Part shown: in pieces, positions 40,701 through 46,700 of the stretch
How the letters are laid out: each line of letters starts with the position of its first letter
How positions within the stretch are numbered: the stretch's first letter is position 1
Origin: Stylophora pistillata
Lineage: Eukaryota
DNA: 64,000 nucleotides
Reading direction: 5' to 3'
Assembly: GCF_002571385.2 (NCBI RefSeq)
Contig: NW_019218136.1
Location: forward strand, 102,854 to 166,853
Position numbers: made by a program

Positions 40701-43700
40701 TATTTCATTGTCACATATTTTGTAAAAGGCACGATCAGTGATTGATTTGACTACTCAAGCTCCAAAACCTACGTTATAGACCCTATATTCTGAGCTATAC
40801 GCTTTAAGTACCTCCTTATTGAAAGATAAACCACCAATACTCCTCTGAAAAGACTTGCCACTTTCGGTTCAAATTCCCTACCCCACCCAGGTAAGGCTCA
40901 AAAGATGACAATCAAAAGCCTGTGGGTTGCCCCGGATGTTGAAGCTGCGATTAATCGGTGTATAACGTCACTGACACCGATTAAACACCTTTTGAACGTC
41001 AAAATCTAAAAAAGGAATGTCAATTAGTACGCTAAGCTAATTCGATTGAGTTAACGACCACACCTAATAAAAAAAAAAAACACTTTTGATCAGGTGTTAC
41101 TCTTTCTCCACAATTAATTTCTAGTAGAAAAACGCAAGCACGAGGTAAAAAGTTGCAAGGACATGTACTTTCAAACAAAAAAACTCAGTGAGGAAATAAA
41201 CTATTGACGAAAATACCTCGAGCTTGAAGGTTATAACCATTTACTATTTGGCTGGACAGTCTTGGGGTAAATCCAAGCGTTCTGATTAGTTCTTACTTGG
41301 TCTGAACCTTGCCATACGTACCATTTCCAAGGAAGCGGTCATAAGCCGTATATTTTTGTTCGCGAAAGCCGAAAAATTAAAATTAAAGAAGTTTTTCCGA
41401 ACGCCATAATACAATACTTCGTAACGTCGTTTGCTTGAGCTGTATTGGGGAATATTGGCCCACGGTAGTTTTTCCACGGACCTCGCTGCGCTCGCTCCGT
41501 ACTACCACGATTTTGGGCCAACAATTCTCAGTACGGACGGCCCTTGCACTTGGTTAGTAAGAAATTATTCTTTGCGGCAACTGCTTATTTTTGTCTTCCT
41601 CTGTACAGCCTCTGTACTTAAGAAGGCTGACACATTAAATATCTGTTAAGCAAACCACAAATTAAAAAAAGAAAAAATCCGGCACAACGTGCCGCGCCAT
41701 TTTGGCAGTTTTACTAGACCGGCGCTTTACGAAATTTTGGAAATCTTTCTCGAAATGATAATTTTTAACAACGAAGACCTGAAAAAAGGGTTAGCTAAAG
41801 AATTGTTCTCAAAAATGCATAATTAATTCTGCGATAAGGCCTGCGCATTTTCCTTTAGCAGGGCTGAATAACACTTCTAGAATGCACGGCATTTTTGTGA
41901 CCCTCTCCTTCATCCAACGCCCATAAAAACAGTGATGCCCGGAACAGGTGATCTAGTCTAATTGGTGGAAGGTGTGTTAAGAATTGGCGCTCGACTTAAA
42001 ATTAAATCTATTTTGGCCTCAATATCGGTAATTCTGACAGTCTTTAGGTTTTCAGAAATCACTTTACCGCACGACATTAGCTGAAATAGTATTAACTGAA
42101 GTATCAAGAGAATTATCTGTTTCTCGACTTCGTTGTTTTGATTTGCGAACATACAGTTTCCAGCCCAACAAATTTCCGTGAGTTTCGTAACTAAAACTCT
42201 CAATTTGGGAAGAACGTTCTTAACTCATCTAAGATTCTTTGTTTGTAGTGGTAATTTCAAATGGCACGTTGTTTGATTATACATTTATCCCCAGGTCTAG
42301 TTCACCCTATATATTTCATTCTGTTTCCAGCTCCATACTTGGTATTCTTCTCCTATTTCAATAATTTTGTACTTTGCCTCTGTTTTGCCTTTACTCTGAC
42401 TTTTGATCCTTTCCCTAACCTTTTTCTATAGCTATTTGTTGTTTGGTGTTCTGCTTATTGGCCCTTCTTGGTAATGTCACTATTACATTCAACTCTGGAT
42501 GAGATCCCCACTGCAAAGTTGACAAGTTTAACAGCAATGACTAACTGTTAAGAAAAATTATCATACAAACTAGTTTGTTAAAAAAACGCTATTCATGGAT
42601 ATTCGTTGCCGTAAAATTACAAGATGGGAATAAGATTGAAATATTTTCAGCCTTGCGTGACAAATGCTTGCGTGTGTCACATCTACACACAGATTGCTTC
42701 CCGTCTTCAACGTTTTCGGCAAAGAAAAAAACCTTACCACGTTTCTAAGTTCACTATAAGGAATCTCTGGGCGAAATATGAAGGTTTTCAATTTTTCGAT
42801 CATGTGCCACATTTTTCGATTTTCACTCGGTCAATTCAGACATTCGCTCTTAAATACTCCACTTACATTGCACTCCTAGGTAAGCAGGATTGGAGGTATC
42901 ATTTCCAAGGCTGTTGGTGGCCACACATCGGTATTCACCGCTGTCTACTCTGTTCACATTCTTTATAGTTAGGTCCTTGTTATCCGCTGACAAACTAATA
43001 CTGGAGGTGTTACCAAGAGGTGATCCTCCCTTATTCCATGATATTTGTGGTACAGGATTTCCCATAGCGTTACAATTGAAGGTAGCATTGTCTCCTTCTT
43101 TTTCAGTTACATTCTGCGGGTGAGCAGTGATCTCTGGAATGTCTGTAACAGAAAAAAATCCGTTAGGTTAATTAAGGTGTTATGTAAAGGGTAAACAACA
43201 CAATTACCTTCGTACAGTAGGTGTGCTGGAATATTTGCTCCAGTTTATTTTTCGTGTTGTGGGCACCACCGATGAAAACCTAATCATTCTTAGTCTACTT
43301 TGGTCTAGAAAATACAAATTAATGATTCTTGACACTCACTGGTTCAAATCGTTAGTTTTGGCTGCAAAAAGTTTTCAATCTCTTTAATTTTAATAAGGAA
43401 ATCTTACAAGGTAGGGCTGAACGTAAGCCGAGAACTTGTTCTCTATGATAAAAGAGGGTATATAACCTCACTAAACGGCTCGCCTTCTACCCGAGTAAGC
43501 TAGCGAAAGGAATATGCTCATTTTCAAATTGATAAGTAAGATTTAAATGTCCAATGACAAAGTTGAAGACTACTTAAATAAATTCTCGTTGGTTTTGTGT
43601 TACATTGTTTTCACAGGCTCTTTGTACTTACATAGTACTGAAATCTCCACTTCTCCTCTAAGTCTGCTTTTCCTAGTGTTTACTTTTAGCGTGTAGCCTC

Positions 43701-46700
43701 CCGCGTCCGATCTCTTTACTCCGAGGAAAACAAATGATGCGCGTTCATTTGTTACGCTCGCGTATAAGCGACCTTGGTACGAGGAGTCTATCCAAGGTAA
43801 GTTATCGGAAGGAATTTTTTCCACAATCTCCTCTGTATCATTTTCAAATAACACCATACGAAGTGATTCACCTTCGTCTAAGGTGTACCTCCATTCCAGT
43901 GTAACATTGTCACCTTCCACAGTAAGGAGTGAATTTTGAGGTTGTTTAGTAAAGCTCGCACCTGATGATGTAAACAAAAAAATTTTCTAGCTGCGCTCCC
44001 AAGTTTTTTACTTTGTGATATAACTTCAAGTTTAACTTTAAACTACTAGCGTATAACTACATTCTTGGGATCTCCAAGAAGAGCTTCAAATCATAACAAA
44101 GACGTTCAAATATTACGAAAATATTGACCAGTTATAGTATTTTGCTGGAATATTTCGACTTGACTATCTTTAAAATTACGTTTCAGTATCCGCAGCTAGT
44201 ATCGTTTTCACACTTCTGTTGTAGTTTATGAAATAACTAAGATACTACGAGCACCTTGAAAAGAGTGGTACACGAGAGGTAGAAAATATTACACAACACT
44301 ACTTAAAGCTCTATTTTTGTCGCAAACCTTTTTTCAATACTCCAACGCAATACTCCATCGCAATACTCTATCGCTAAAACCTACCAGCATAAAAAAGGCT
44401 GCCTTGCTTCTAAGAAGTAACTATTAAGCATGCTTAGCAGTTTGTAGGACTTTTGATAAGGAATATCAGTTTTTGATAAGTAATATTACTAAAATAGATA
44501 CACGGCAACTTCGAAGTAGACGTATTATTAATCAAAAAAAAATTATTTTGGAAGAAACATAAACAAGATAAAAATGGCTTCCCTGTTTCTAAGAAGGAAC
44601 TATAAAGTATGTGTAGCATTTTGCATGATTTTGATGAGTAATATTATATGTAGGCGTTATTCCCAAATATGAACGCTTTTCGCTTTATGATAACGCTTTC
44701 TAACACTTATTTCCCTTCATTTTGGGAGCGTTGAAGCTCATTTCGTGAAAATTATGCAACATAAGACAAGCAACAACAAACATATGAAACATATGTATGA
44801 ACTGCGGTTATGAAACGTATATATGCACGATCCTTCGCAGTAAAGCACTATTTGAGCAATAGTGAAAATCAGACCTGAAAAAAATTTTCAGGCCTGTACG
44901 GGATTCGAACCACTGACCTCTGCGATACTAGTGCAGCGCTCTACCAATTGAGCTAACAAGCCAACTGGGAGCAGACCATCAAATTAATTCGACATAAACC
45001 CGTAGATGATAAATCAAACAACAACAAACATATGAAACATATGGTCTGCTCCCAGTTGGCTTGTTAGCTCAATTGGTAGAGCGCTGCACTAGTATCGCAG
45101 AGGTCATTGGTTCGAATCCCGTACAGGCCTGAAAATTTTTTTCAGGTCTGATTTTCACTATTGCTCAAATAGTGCTTTACTGCGAAGGATCGTGCATATA
45201 TACATAAGACAAGCACTTAACCTTTTTCTGAACGTTGTTTGTAATTACTCTTGCATCTACTTCCTTCGTCACGAACGCAGTCACGGTCATGATCGGCAAA
45301 AATGAACCGCCAATGAAAACATAATTGACTCAACAGCAAAGAAAATAAATTTTACGAAACGAAAATGACACGAATTAAACCAGCTGCTCGTCACCGATAG
45401 CATCATCGTCTTTTGAAACACACAATAAACAAATGCTTCAATCGAGGTCACTAAAACGAGCGAACACGGAAGTCTCGAATGAGGCTCGTATAGCACGACA
45501 TCAGTACGAGACGAAAAGGAAAAAATAGCTGGCTTTCTAGTTTCGATATTTGAATGAACTCTCACTAACACTGATTTATCCCGTGGAAATCCCTTTCACT
45601 TTTACGTTGAATTTCAAGGCTTTCTATACACTACATTAGGCACTTCTAAAGTTATTTCTTGCCGGGTTGTTTATTTTCATCTCGCATTCCATACTGTTCT
45701 CGTGCTAGTCACCGCTTTCTCTGTCAAGCCTCACATCACGAAAGCACGATACACGATCGGAAACAGCGGGGTGCCTTACTTTCCATGTAGTCGTTGAATA
45801 TATGAAATATTGACTTCAATATTCCGACAAGTTCGTTGACGACCATATTGAACTTACACATTCTCAGATACGTACCCAGGCTTCATCTAACTTTCCTTTT
45901 CAGAAACACAACAAATTTTGTGTGAAAATCGCTAATTCTTATCTTATATTCTAATATCTATCCGCTAATATCATAGCTTTAGTTTTGTTTCTGTATATGA
46001 GCATACAATGGCTTCTAACAATGAGATGCCTATAAACCTTACCTTCGACAGAAAACATGAAAAGAGCACACAGAAAGATTGTAGGCCAACCTGCCTCCAT
46101 TACACAGGATGTCTTTTGCGTTCTCTCACATCGATTGGGCTGCTTTAAAGTGAATAAATACCGCCGTCTTCAGCATAAAGAAGCGACTAATCGCTAGAAC
46201 GAACCTCCCTTTGCCGACGGTAGTGTGTAACACGATGATCCTTGTCAGGTATCAATTACGTGTCTTAAATAATTATTGACTAATGGGTCACGCATTTCCG
46301 TCGAGTTCGGCGTTCGTGGTGTTGATTATTTCCCAGACAAGAGCTATCTAAAACCATTCGTTTTGATGAATGAAATGAAAGTTTCCTGACCCTTCAAATT
46401 CTGTATAAAATGGAAACTGTGAGGTTTCCAAATATATAGGTCGGTGGAAAACGTTAACCATTTCCGCATAGTAATTTCTAAGAGAAGTATACACAATTTA
46501 AAGTTGAACTATCAATTTCTTTGTTTACCAATATAATTCCGAAGGAACTAGAATCTAAGGCCCTTCCTTCAAATCCTCGACGTTTAACGCAAACTTCACA
46601 GTAGGTGAACTTTATTCTGCTATTCTAGAGCGAAAAAGAAGCAAAGCTAGGTCCGATTATAAGTCTTTAGAGTAGTGATTTCGTCTACGGCATGTTGTTC

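What the first reader, a model, noticed from the sequence alone, without database searches (positions are those of the whole stretch)
43632..43961. Cysteine-less V-type tip domain with Trp at the B-strand Cys position, as in Hydractinia Alr domain 1
Seen: VTLEWRY (W for Cys), MVLFE (F for the core Trp) and DAGGYTLKV (L for Cys), whereas all 15 downstream Ig exons keep C-W-C. Established: Alr family domain 1 is a V-set fold with a non-canonical core and determines allele-specific binding; CEACAM and CD2 N-domains also lack the disulfide. Inference: this is the specificity domain, here linked to an RPTP.
Basis: partly seen in the sequence, partly recalled or inferred. Interest (0 to 1): 0.72.

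Follow-up and report, generated by a model that had tools for sequence, protein, structure and literature searches.

The report
Disulfide-less V-type Ig tip of coral phosphatase receptor
This exon encodes a real antibody-like V-type domain with no core cysteines, belonging to a large and apparently undescribed family that sits at the outer tip of many coral surface receptors; its role in self-recognition is untested.

Summary
Window 43632..43961 (minus strand) is a clean 330-nt phase 1-1 exon. Its 109-residue product has no cysteine. W23, F38 and L91 sit where the window's 14 intact I-set Ig exons carry Cys, Trp and Cys.

AlphaFold2 gives a confident V-set sandwich (pLDDT 97.3), and the listed PDB fold matches are IgV domains (PD-L1, nectins, TIGIT).

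The domain is not a one-off. Of 198 distinct relatives, 196 keep the Trp and 186 have no cysteine. The named relatives are stony-coral proteins. There the domain follows the signal peptide of varied IgSF receptors, including a receptor tyrosine kinase.

In this window a signal-peptide-like exon lies upstream. Downstream lie 15 Ig exons, FN3 exons, a transmembrane exon and tandem PTP domains. No transcript evidence joins them.

The pin replacement matches the published description of Hydractinia Alr domain 1, but the Alr architecture is not met. Direct comparison with Alr sequences and polymorphism could not be tested.

Most likely this is the partner-binding tip of the receptor. Verdict: new member of a known kind, moderate interest.

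The parts
46043..46100 (-). Candidate first coding exon: ATG, 19 codons with a hydrophobic leader, one extra base, then the donor AAG|GTAAGG (phase 1). Joined to the next exon it would give a Gly codon.
   Evidence: Scan of all ATG-to-GT phase-1 candidates on the minus strand between 43962 and 52400. Sequence read. The position matches the signal peptides of relatives P0011, P0015 and P0086. Inferred, with no transcript evidence. A weaker second candidate lies at 47652..47586.
43632..43961 (-). The finding: a phase 1-1 exon encoding a 109-residue cysteine-less V-set Ig domain (W23, F38 and L91 in place of Cys-Trp-Cys; G16, R64, L79, D85 and Y89 kept).
   Evidence: exon and translation; sequence matches; fold; family; position mapping.
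42867..43142 (-). Next exon: a canonical I-set Ig domain, phase 1-1. The junction codon T+AC gives Tyr, the same ...VL-Y-(I/Q)PEI... junction as in the Pocillopora meandrina model P0048.
   Evidence: splice sites; I-set, E 2.1e-24; P0048.
26045..38605 (-). Thirteen further intact I-set Ig exons with Cys-Trp-Cys, and one (31093..30818) with an in-frame TAG at 30998..30996. Three near-identical two-exon units lie between about 32805 and 28030.
   Evidence: exons and motif; stop codon and nucleotide alignment of the repeated units; I-set for 37567-37911.
19586..25573 (-). Fibronectin type III exons. The interval also contains a THAP-domain ORF (22697..23098), presumably an inserted element in an intron.
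   Evidence: fn3, E 1.8e-14 and 9.6e-15; THAP, E 8.3e-13.
16773..17258 (-). Frame holding the juxtamembrane region and a hydrophobic transmembrane stretch followed by basic residues.
   Evidence: Translation. Only sub-threshold Pfam matches such as EphA2_TM. The TM assignment is read from the sequence.
14015..16288 (-). Three exons of the membrane-proximal tyrosine phosphatase domain (Pfam positions 1-75, 73-173 and 173-234), with the [10 protein letters not shown] active-site motif.
   Evidence: Y_phosphatase, E 1e-31, 1.1e-23 and 5.1e-21; translation.
13313..13789 (-). Start of a second tyrosine phosphatase domain (Pfam positions 1-81). The rest lies beyond the N run at 13016..13219, which was left as it is.
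   Evidence: Y_phosphatase, E 4.2e-31; N runs listed.

Best explanation
The exon encodes the membrane-distal V-set immunoglobulin domain of a very large cell-surface receptor. The most likely gene model is: signal peptide, this V domain, 14-15 I-set Ig domains, fibronectin III domains, a transmembrane helix and two tyrosine phosphatase domains.

The domain belongs to a large coral family of V domains in which the usual Cys-Trp-Cys core pin is replaced by Trp, Phe/Leu and Ile/Leu/Phe. The Arg-Asp salt bridge, the tyrosine corner and the A'-B glycine are kept. The fold is therefore held by hydrophobic packing instead of a disulfide.

I infer that it is the partner-binding tip. It would contact a like or related V domain, or another ligand, through its G-F-C-C'-C'' sheet, which is the face that varies most among family members. 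That contact would control where the phosphatase acts at cell contacts.

Shown by computation: the exon, the residue substitutions, the family, the predicted fold, and the domain types of the neighbouring exons. Inferred: the single transcript, binding, and any signalling consequence.
For: Exon and residues.

Fold:
- AlphaFold2 with a 69-row alignment gives pLDDT 97.3 and pTM 0.88, with strands A, A', B, C, C', a short C'', D, E, F and G.
- ESMFold2 without an alignment gave pLDDT 92 for the chain.
- Foldseek against the PDB gave at least 500 matches at E <= 0.001. The rows listed were PD-L1, nectin-1/-4, TIGIT, CRIg/VSIG4, CD155 and TCR V-beta entries, with TM-score to the query of 0.74-0.85.

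Family:
- 84 representatives at E <= 0.001 and 17 at <= 1e-10.
- Among 198 distinct near-full-length domains, W23 is kept in 196. Position 38 is F/L/V/I in 193 and position 91 is I/L/F/V in 190.
- R64 is kept in 190, D/E85 in 197, Y89 in 191 and G16 in 187. 186 domains have no Cys.

Tip position and varied receptors:
- Pocillopora verrucosa P0086 has the domain at residues 26-136, after a leader, and a tyrosine kinase at 2107-2380.
- Montipora foliosa P0029, Acropora muricata P0078 and Desmophyllum P0011 have a leader, then the domain, then Ig domains.

This gene: I-set, fn3 and two Y_phosphatase starts lie downstream on the same strand. All Ig exons are phase 1-1. The junction to the next exon is the same as in P0048.

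Binding face:
- Across the 198 domains, mean column entropy is higher for strands C, C', C'', F and G (2.13-2.42 bits) than for A, B, D and E (1.17-1.82 bits).
- A two-copy prediction gave ipSAE 0.32 against a best control of 0.00 (three controls). The runs agreed in at least 94% of contacts and partner pLDDT was at least 92.
- That mark was reached by 21 of 30 proteins solved as pairs of one chain and by 0 of 23 solved as single chains (microbes).
- On eukaryotes it was reached by 17 of 29 pairs (animals 7 of 16), but by only 1 of the 7 with no older solved relative, and by 0 of 30 single chains.
- The predicted symmetric interface is residues 34-35, 43-44, 47, 49-51, 56, 94, 96 and 99. Eleven of these 12 are among the 27 most variable columns. 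Their mean entropy is 2.92 bits against 1.82 for the rest, and 0 of 20000 random draws reached that value.
Against: - No transcript, protein or binding data exist here.
- The dimer score sits exactly on the tool's mark. V-domain homodimers of this kind are solved (CEACAM, nectins), so the pass may reflect memory of those rather than this protein.
- The entropy contrast is partly trivial. Interface residues are by necessity exposed and buried residues are conserved. The 198 domains are redundant and were all found with searches seeded by this family.
- One downstream Ig exon carries an in-frame stop. The full-length receptor therefore needs that exon to be skipped, or the stop to be an assembly or allelic error.
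- Pfam does not reach its V-set threshold on the exon (16.0 bits against 26).
Confidence: 0.62

Rival explanations
1. The domain is the anthozoan counterpart of Hydractinia Alr domain 1: a highly polymorphic, allele-specific homophilic recognition module. Here it would feed self/non-self recognition directly into a tyrosine phosphatase.
For: - The pin replacement is the same as in all Alr domain 1 sequences: both Cys are absent, the B-strand position is aromatic, and the Trp and F-strand positions are hydrophobic (PMC9546547, passages).
- In Alr2, specificity-changing mutations lie in strands C and C' (PMC8282982, passages). The predicted interface and the most variable columns here lie in C, C' and C'C''.
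- One Pocillopora meandrina family member (P0180, CAH3161308.1) is named 'Allorecognition 2' by UniRef. This is a source's name, not a test.
- The family is large in colonial corals.
Against: - The Alr architecture is not present. The following Ig domains keep their disulfides, and nothing read here shows a cysteine-rich Fn3-like spacer. The cytoplasmic part is a tandem PTP, not a short tail with ITAM/ITIM.
- The tyrosine corner is Tyr here (191 of 198), whereas only 7 of 29 Alr domains have it.
- Only one such exon lies in the 64 kb.
- No allelic data exist.
- No Alr sequence could be obtained, so homology as against convergence is open.
- The same domain heads many different receptor types, which fits a general adhesion or ligand-binding cap as well.
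Confidence: 0.1
2. The tip domain binds a heterophilic ligand rather than itself. The ligand could be another host IgSF protein, a matrix component, or a microbial or symbiont surface molecule, as the V domains of nectins, B7 proteins, CRIg or CEACAMs do.
For: - The best fold matches are V domains with heterophilic partners: PD-L1, TIGIT, CD155, CRIg and nectins.
- The family's variable C-C'-C'' and F-G face fits diversified ligand recognition as well as homophilic binding.
- The domain caps receptors with different signalling ends.
Against: The only binding computation run was for two copies, and it passed marginally. No candidate ligand was identified. Nothing here separates heterophilic from homophilic binding.
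Confidence: 0.18
3. The exon is not part of a working RPTP. Either it belongs to a separate shorter gene (leader, V domain, a few Ig domains), or the locus is a decaying member of a tandemly expanding IgSF cluster.
For: - There is an in-frame TAG in Ig exon 31093..30818.
- Recent exon-pair duplications and inserted elements (THAP, reverse transcriptase) lie in and around the locus.
- The Orbicella model P0096 has the domain in the middle of a long Ig array behind a non-Ig linker, which looks like two neighbouring genes merged. This shows that such arrays are easily mis-joined.
- Short family members exist (P0029 with 688 aa, P0078 with 363 aa).
Against: - All other exons are open, with consensus splice sites and matching phases.
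- The interrupted exon is symmetric, so skipping it keeps the frame.
- No terminal exon or second leader was seen between 43632 and the PTP exons in the ORF lists.
- The phosphatase active-site motif is intact.
- P0086 shows that a leader plus this domain can head a protein of more than 2000 aa.
Confidence: 0.1

Closest known systems
Hydractinia symbiolongicarpus Alr family, domain 1 (Huene et al. 2022, PMC9546547; Alr2 domain 1 binding study, PMC8282982)
   Same: - An N-terminal V-set-like domain of a cnidarian transmembrane IgSF protein.
- Both pin cysteines are absent, the B-strand position is aromatic (Trp here), and hydrophobic residues replace the core Trp and the F-strand Cys.
- The Arg-Asp salt bridge and the central Leu are kept.
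- Variability is concentrated on the C/C' side.
   Different: - Here the tyrosine corner is Tyr and the A'-B glycine is conserved.
- The downstream Ig domains are canonical and disulfide-bearing.
- The cytoplasmic end is a tandem PTP (a tyrosine kinase in a Pocillopora relative), not a short ITAM/ITIM tail.
- Sequence homology to Alr D1, allelic hypervariability and isoform-specific binding were not testable here.
CEACAM/PSG N-domain and CD2-family N-domains (disulfide-less IgV)
   Same: - Membrane-distal IgV without the B-F disulfide.
- The best sequence matches in the PDB are mouse CEACAM1 (E 0.045 with the single sequence) and the CEA/CEACAM6 N-domains (aligned over most of the profile). 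CD48 scores E 1.8e-6.
- They share the F-strand motif D-x-G-x-Y-T-L-x-V.
- The predicted self-contact uses the GFCC'C'' face.
   Different: - CEACAM N-domains keep the core Trp (SWYKG in the alignments), whereas this family has Phe/Leu there and a Trp at the B-strand position.
- The matches are weak, and the taxa are vertebrate as against cnidarian.
IgV domains of nectins, PD-L1/B7, TIGIT, CD155, CRIg
   Same: The closest predicted fold matches (TM-score to the query 0.74-0.85, E about 1e-8 to 1e-7). Nectin-3 is the best full-length profile match with a canonical V domain (E 8.1e-9).
   Different: These domains have the canonical Cys-Trp-Cys pin. Sequence identity is 12-22%.
Receptor-type protein tyrosine phosphatases with Ig and FN3 ectodomains and tandem PTP domains (the LAR-like and RPTP-mu-like classes are named from recall)
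   Same: Ig domains, FN3 domains, one TM and two PTP domains lie in the same order on one strand.
   Different: There are about 15 I-set domains headed by a pin-less V domain, many more Ig domains than I recall for those vertebrate classes. No MAM domain was seen. The transcript is not verified.
Annotated stony-coral proteins carrying the same domain, e.g. Pocillopora verrucosa 'hemicentin-1-like isoform X2' (P0086), Montipora foliosa 'intercellular adhesion molecule 5-like' (XP_068686979.1) and Acropora muricata 'protein CEPU-1-like' (XP_067054192.1)
   Same: The same domain family directly after the leader, followed by canonical Ig domains.
   Different: Identity to the window's domain is 29-48%. 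The signalling ends differ (kinase or short forms). The names are automatic and none refers to this domain.

Membership tests
Immunoglobulin V-set domain | Sequence match to Pfam PF07686 above its gathering score | tested here: not met
   16.0 bits, E 0.014, against a cut-off of 26 bits. The alignment is nevertheless full length (residues 7-108 on profile positions 2-108 of 109).
Immunoglobulin V-set domain | Two-sheet sandwich with strands A, A', B, C, C', C'', D, E, F, G, and closest structures that are V domains | tested here: met
   Predicted only. pLDDT is 97.3, with strands at 2-5, 10-13, 19-26, 33-40, 44-48, 56-57 (short), 65-69, 73-78, 87-95 and 99-108. The listed Foldseek matches are IgV entries.
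Immunoglobulin V-set domain | Cys-Trp-Cys pin (B-strand Cys, C-strand Trp, F-strand Cys) | tested here: not met
   W23, F38 and L91 occupy these columns in the hhalign alignment to 14 canonical Ig exons. P0001 has no Cys.
Immunoglobulin V-set domain | Arg-Asp salt bridge, tyrosine corner, A'-B glycine and central Leu (the eight-residue list quoted in PMC9546547) | tested here: met
   R64, D85, Y89, G16 and L79 are present and conserved: 190, 197 (D or E), 191 and 187 of 198, with position 79 being F or L in 182 of 198. The residues were identified by position in the sequence. The contacts themselves were not measured because no coordinates were available.
Hydractinia Alr family (domain 1) | Pin replaced by an aromatic residue at the B strand and hydrophobic residues at the other two positions | tested here: met
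   Trp, Phe and Leu, compared with the description in PMC9546547.
Hydractinia Alr family (domain 1) | Sequence or profile homology to Alr D1 closer than to other V domains | not testable with these tools
The only lead is the UniRef name 'Allorecognition 2' on P0180. The paper's supplementary alignments were closed.
Hydractinia Alr family (domain 1) | Alr protein architecture: a V domain, one or two cysteine-pin-less I-set domains, an Fn3-like spacer with invariant cysteines, a TM, and a tail often with ITAM/ITIM | tested here: not met
   The downstream exons are canonical C-W-C I-set domains, followed by fn3 and tandem Y_phosphatase.
Hydractinia Alr family (domain 1) | Extreme allelic polymorphism and isoform-specific homophilic binding | not testable with these tools
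   Only one haplotype is in the window, and no population data or assays are available. The two-copy prediction says nothing about specificity.
Hydractinia Alr family (domain 1) | Residence in a cluster of paralogous genes | tested here: inconclusive
   Only one family member lies in the 64 kb. Both neighbouring genes are IgSF genes, and their 5' ends lie outside the window.
CEACAM-type disulfide-less N-domain | IgV without the B-F disulfide but with the core Trp retained | tested here: not met
   There is no disulfide, but Phe stands at the Trp column. The CEACAM alignments show SWYKG.
Receptor-type protein tyrosine phosphatase | PTP domain with the HCx5R active site, a TM helix, and an extracellular Ig/FN3 array in one protein | tested here: inconclusive
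   Each element is present exon by exon on one strand and in order. The exons were not joined, and no transcript evidence exists.

The most novel reading that the evidence does not exclude
Stony corals would possess a large family of Alr-D1-like, pin-less V domains that act as diversified homophilic recognition tips, wired directly to phosphotyrosine signalling (a tandem PTP here, a tyrosine kinase in Pocillopora). They would be long-sought candidate determinants of coral self/non-self recognition. They would also show that the Alr-type V domain predates the split between hydrozoans and anthozoans.
Probability: 0.1. Interest if true: 0.85.

Novelty: new member of a known kind. Interest (0 to 1): 0.5.

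Why it matters
Huene et al. 2022 wrote two things in the passages I read. They knew of no V-set domain outside bilaterians other than the Alr domains. They also knew of no V- or I-set domain lacking both the disulfide and the Trp.

This exon belongs to a sizeable family that does exactly that. Its named members come from six genera of stony corals. The family keeps the other V-set hallmarks, so it is easier to recognise as a V domain than Alr D1 is. Its members already sit in public coral proteomes under unrelated automatic names.

In four literature searches I found no paper describing it. 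The library searched is incomplete and supplements were closed.

If the family proves polymorphic and homophilic, it would give coral allorecognition a molecular handle. If not, it is still a useful marker domain for annotating cnidarian IgSF receptors, and an example of how the Ig core tolerates loss of the pin.

Tried and rejected
- Searching for longer proteins with the single exon found nothing (proteins of 192-2000 aa only). A full model of this gene would exceed that range, so this says little.
- The first profile-profile comparison (A2 against A3) aligned the canonical Ig domains that some A2 rows carry after the V domain. It was uninformative, so I repeated it with the alignment trimmed to the domain.
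- Two protein-atlas searches returned cnidarian 'hypothetical protein' clusters and vertebrate V-set families, but no Alr-named cluster.
- Literature searches for a description of such a family in corals found only the Hydractinia papers and general reviews. Two papers opened for the word 'allorecognition' had nothing relevant. The Hydractinia genome paper says nothing about anthozoan relatives in the passages found.
- I considered that the exon might be a degenerate copy of the neighbouring I-set exons. I rejected this. It is longer (109 against about 91 residues), has C' and C'' strands, matches its own family at E 1e-36, and matches the I-set exons only through the E-G strands.
- I considered that the bacterial hits (P0028, P0069, P0076, P0088, P0093) were relatives. 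They match short stretches only, so I left them out of A2.
- The organism was not identified. The best identity to any relative is 48%, and the named relatives are all scleractinian except one gastropod protein and some fish proteins with weak matches.
- The exons were searched one by one.

Full report
WHAT IS THERE

The finding lies on the minus strand. Window 43961..43632 is a 330-nt exon bounded by ...tcatcag|gt and t|gtaagt, in phase 1-1, inside a 128-codon open frame. Its 109 whole codons (P0001) contain no cysteine. The three quoted motifs are present: VTLEWRY (W23), MVLFE (F38) and DAGGYTLKV (L91).

I aligned a profile of the domain family with a profile of the window's own 14 canonical I-set exons (hhalign, probability 97.4%, E 1.4e-11, 83 columns). 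This places W23 on the B-strand Cys, F38 on the C-strand Trp and L91 on the F-strand Cys.

Fourteen are intact. The fifteenth, 31093..30818, carries an in-frame TAG at 30998..30996.

FOLD

- Pfam gives only sub-threshold matches: V-set 16.0 bits against a cut-off of 26, but over the full length; Ig_3; I-set.
- The best PDB sequence match of the single sequence is the mouse CEACAM1 N-domain (E 0.045).
- With a 69-row alignment of relatives, AlphaFold2 gives pLDDT 97.3 and pTM 0.88. The strands are A, A', B, C, C', a two-residue C'', D, E, F and G.
- ESMFold2 without an alignment gave pLDDT 92.
- Foldseek against the PDB gave at least 500 matches at E <= 0.001. The rows listed are PD-L1, nectin-1/-4, TIGIT, CRIg/VSIG4, CD155 and TCR V-beta entries, with TM-scores of 0.74-0.85.
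- The family profile against PDB sequences matched 167 distinct chains at E <= 0.01. CEA/CEACAM N-domains aligned over most of the profile. Matches also included nectin-3 (8.1e-9), CD80, CD48, TCR alpha V, PD-L1 and JAM-A.

IT IS A FAMILY TRAIT, NOT A DEGENERATE COPY

An exhaustive HMMER search of 1.84 billion representatives found 84 proteins at E <= 0.001 and 17 at <= 1e-10. The best had 48% identity. Most are short ORF-type predictions. Their tails 'CKY...' are read-through of the conserved donor T|GTAAGTA.

Among these 198:
- W23 is kept in 196.
- Position 38 is F, L, V or I in 133, 47, 8 and 5.
- Position 91 is I, L, F or V in 108, 48, 28 and 6.
- R64 is kept in 190, D/E85 in 197, Y89 in 191 and G16 in 187.
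- 186 have no cysteine at all, 10 have one and 2 have three.

These counts come from a redundant sample gathered by searches seeded with this family.

In the window itself the family HMM finds only this exon (E 1.1e-36). The I-set exons score 8.6e-06 or worse, through strands E-G only.

WHO CARRIES IT

The relatives that have names are stony-coral proteins:
- Pocillopora verrucosa 'hemicentin-1-like isoform X2'
- Pocillopora meandrina CAH3161308.1 and CAH3163878.1
- Orbicella faveolata 'hemicentin-2-like'
- Oculina patagonica 'hemicentin-like' isoforms
- Montipora foliosa 'intercellular adhesion molecule 5-like'
- Acropora muricata and A. millepora 'lachesin-like' and 'CEPU-1-like'
- Desmophyllum pertusum KAJ7347160.1

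A gastropod protein (Batillaria, P0025) matches weakly. It has Trp at the B-strand position but keeps the core Trp.

In the models that start with a leader, the domain comes first and canonical Ig domains follow (P0011, P0015, P0029, P0059, P0078, P0086). P0086 has the domain at residues 26-136 and a tyrosine kinase domain at 2107-2380. The same cap therefore heads receptors with different signalling ends.

UniRef calls one member (P0180) 'Allorecognition 2'. That is a source's label and I could not trace its basis.

The window's species is not identified. The window looks anthozoan and is not human.

THE GENE AROUND IT

The elements, in order on the minus strand:
- Upstream, the best signal-peptide-like exon is 46100..46043. 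It has an ATG in a good context, 19 codons with a hydrophobic core, and a donor AAG|GTAAGG in phase 1.
- The next exon downstream, 43142..42867, is an I-set domain (E 2.1e-24). The junction codon gives Tyr, as in the Pocillopora model P0048.
- Thirteen more intact I-set exons and the interrupted one follow.
- Then come FN3 exons and a frame with a transmembrane stretch.
- Three exons cover one Y_phosphatase domain, with the [10 protein letters not shown] motif. A second Y_phosphatase domain then starts and runs into the N stretch at 13016..13219, which I left as it is.

The order, strand and phases fit one receptor-type phosphatase gene of about 33 kb. This is inference. There is no transcript evidence.

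The gene upstream on the same strand (63435..52332) is a paralogue. It ends in a transmembrane segment and a short tail, so the V exon starts a new gene.

HOW IT PROBABLY WORKS

The Trp/Phe/Leu triad replaces the disulfide pin by hydrophobic packing. The salt bridge, tyrosine corner and A'-B turn are kept.

Across the family the C, C', C'', F and G strands vary more (mean column entropy 2.13-2.42 bits) than A, B, D and E (1.17-1.82 bits).

A two-copy prediction gave ipSAE 0.32 against a best control of 0.00 (three controls). The runs agreed in at least 94% of contacts and partner pLDDT was at least 92.
- The mark was reached by 21 of 30 proteins solved as pairs of one chain and by 0 of 23 solved as single chains (microbes).
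- On eukaryotes it was reached by 17 of 29 pairs (animals 7 of 16), but by only 1 of the 7 with no older solved relative, and by 0 of 30 single chains.
- The score is exactly at the mark, and similar V-domain dimers are solved. The pass shows likeness to such dimers rather than binding.

The symmetric interface is residues 34-35, 43-44, 47, 49-51, 56, 94, 96 and 99. It overlaps the most variable columns: 11 of 12 are in the top 27, mean entropy is 2.92 against 1.82 bits, and 0 of 20000 random draws reached that value. This overlap is partly expected for any exposed patch.

My reading is that this is the partner-binding tip of the receptor. Whether it binds itself or something else is undecided.

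COMPARISON WITH Alr

From the passages of PMC9546547 that I read:
- All Alr domain 1 sequences lack both cysteines, and only two have the Trp.
- The B-strand position is Trp, Phe or Tyr, and the other two pin positions are hydrophobic.
- The salt bridge is present in 26 of 29, and Tyr at the corner in 7 of 29.

The window's domain shares the pin replacement and the salt bridge, but it keeps the Tyr and the Gly.

[quoted passage not shown] The specificity-changing mutations there lie in strands C and C'.

The rest of the Alr architecture is absent here. I could not obtain any Alr sequence, so I could not test whether this family is closer to Alr D1 than to CEACAM, nectin or B7 V domains. I also could not test polymorphism.

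NOVELTY

A disulfide-less V domain is a known kind (CEACAM, CD2, Alr). A cnidarian family lacking the whole pin, outside Hydractinia and heading RPTP and RTK receptors, was not described in any paper that four full-text searches returned. The library is incomplete and supplements were closed. The proteins themselves are already in public coral annotations under generic names. I rate the finding a new member of a known kind, with moderate interest.

Noticed in passing
window 31093..30818, minus strand (TAG at 30998..30996): One of the tandemly repeated I-set exons has an in-frame stop (GAG in its two sister exons, TAG here). The exon is symmetric, so skipping it would keep the frame. It could also be an allelic or assembly error.
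   Followed up: partly
window about 32850..28000, minus strand: There are three near-identical copies of a two-exon unit: an Ig exon of the '...NPEPELSWF...' type followed by one of the '...NPLPEISWEKNG' type. Intron flanks are conserved too, so exon pairs were duplicated recently inside the gene.
   Followed up: partly
window 63435..52332, minus strand: A paralogous IgSF gene lies upstream. It has the same order of Ig exon types, FN3 exons and two more I-set exons. Its last frame (52730..52335) holds a transmembrane stretch and a tail with tyrosine motifs (YEEI, YYNV) but matches no Pfam family. Its 5' end is beyond the window.
   Followed up: partly
window 49218..52105, plus strand: A non-LTR-retrotransposon-like element lies between the two IgSF genes. 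The frame 50931..51911 matches RVT_1 (E 1.1e-23) and shows a YADD motif.
   Followed up: partly
window 22697..23098, minus strand; also 24145..23879 and 20548..20291: A THAP-domain ORF (E 8.3e-13) sits in an intron of the FN3 region. It is flanked by two similar half-FN3 exons, which suggests a local duplication around an inserted element.
   Followed up: partly
window 896..1523 and 2276..2903, plus strand, flanking the N run 1877..2177: There are two almost identical copies of an Ig exon (the '...CRYNASPP...' type) and its upstream frame, on either side of an assembly gap. This may be an assembly duplication. The same Ig type follows the pin-less V domain in the Desmophyllum protein P0011, so this plus-strand gene may start with such a domain outside the window.
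   Followed up: no
database proteins P0002-P0010 and many others: Most relatives are single-exon ORF calls. Their conserved 'CKY' tail after the domain is the translated splice donor T|GTAAGTA, and their heads ('...SSG') are the translated acceptor. Splice positions and phases are therefore conserved across the family.
   Followed up: partly
P0096, Orbicella faveolata 'hemicentin-2-like': In this model the pin-less V domain lies in the middle of the protein, behind a non-Ig linker. It looks like two neighbouring genes merged by the annotation pipeline.
   Followed up: no
window 47652..47586, minus strand: A second leader-like ATG exon candidate with a strongly hydrophobic peptide but a poor donor (ATC|GTTGGT). 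It could be an alternative or a dead first exon.
   Followed up: no
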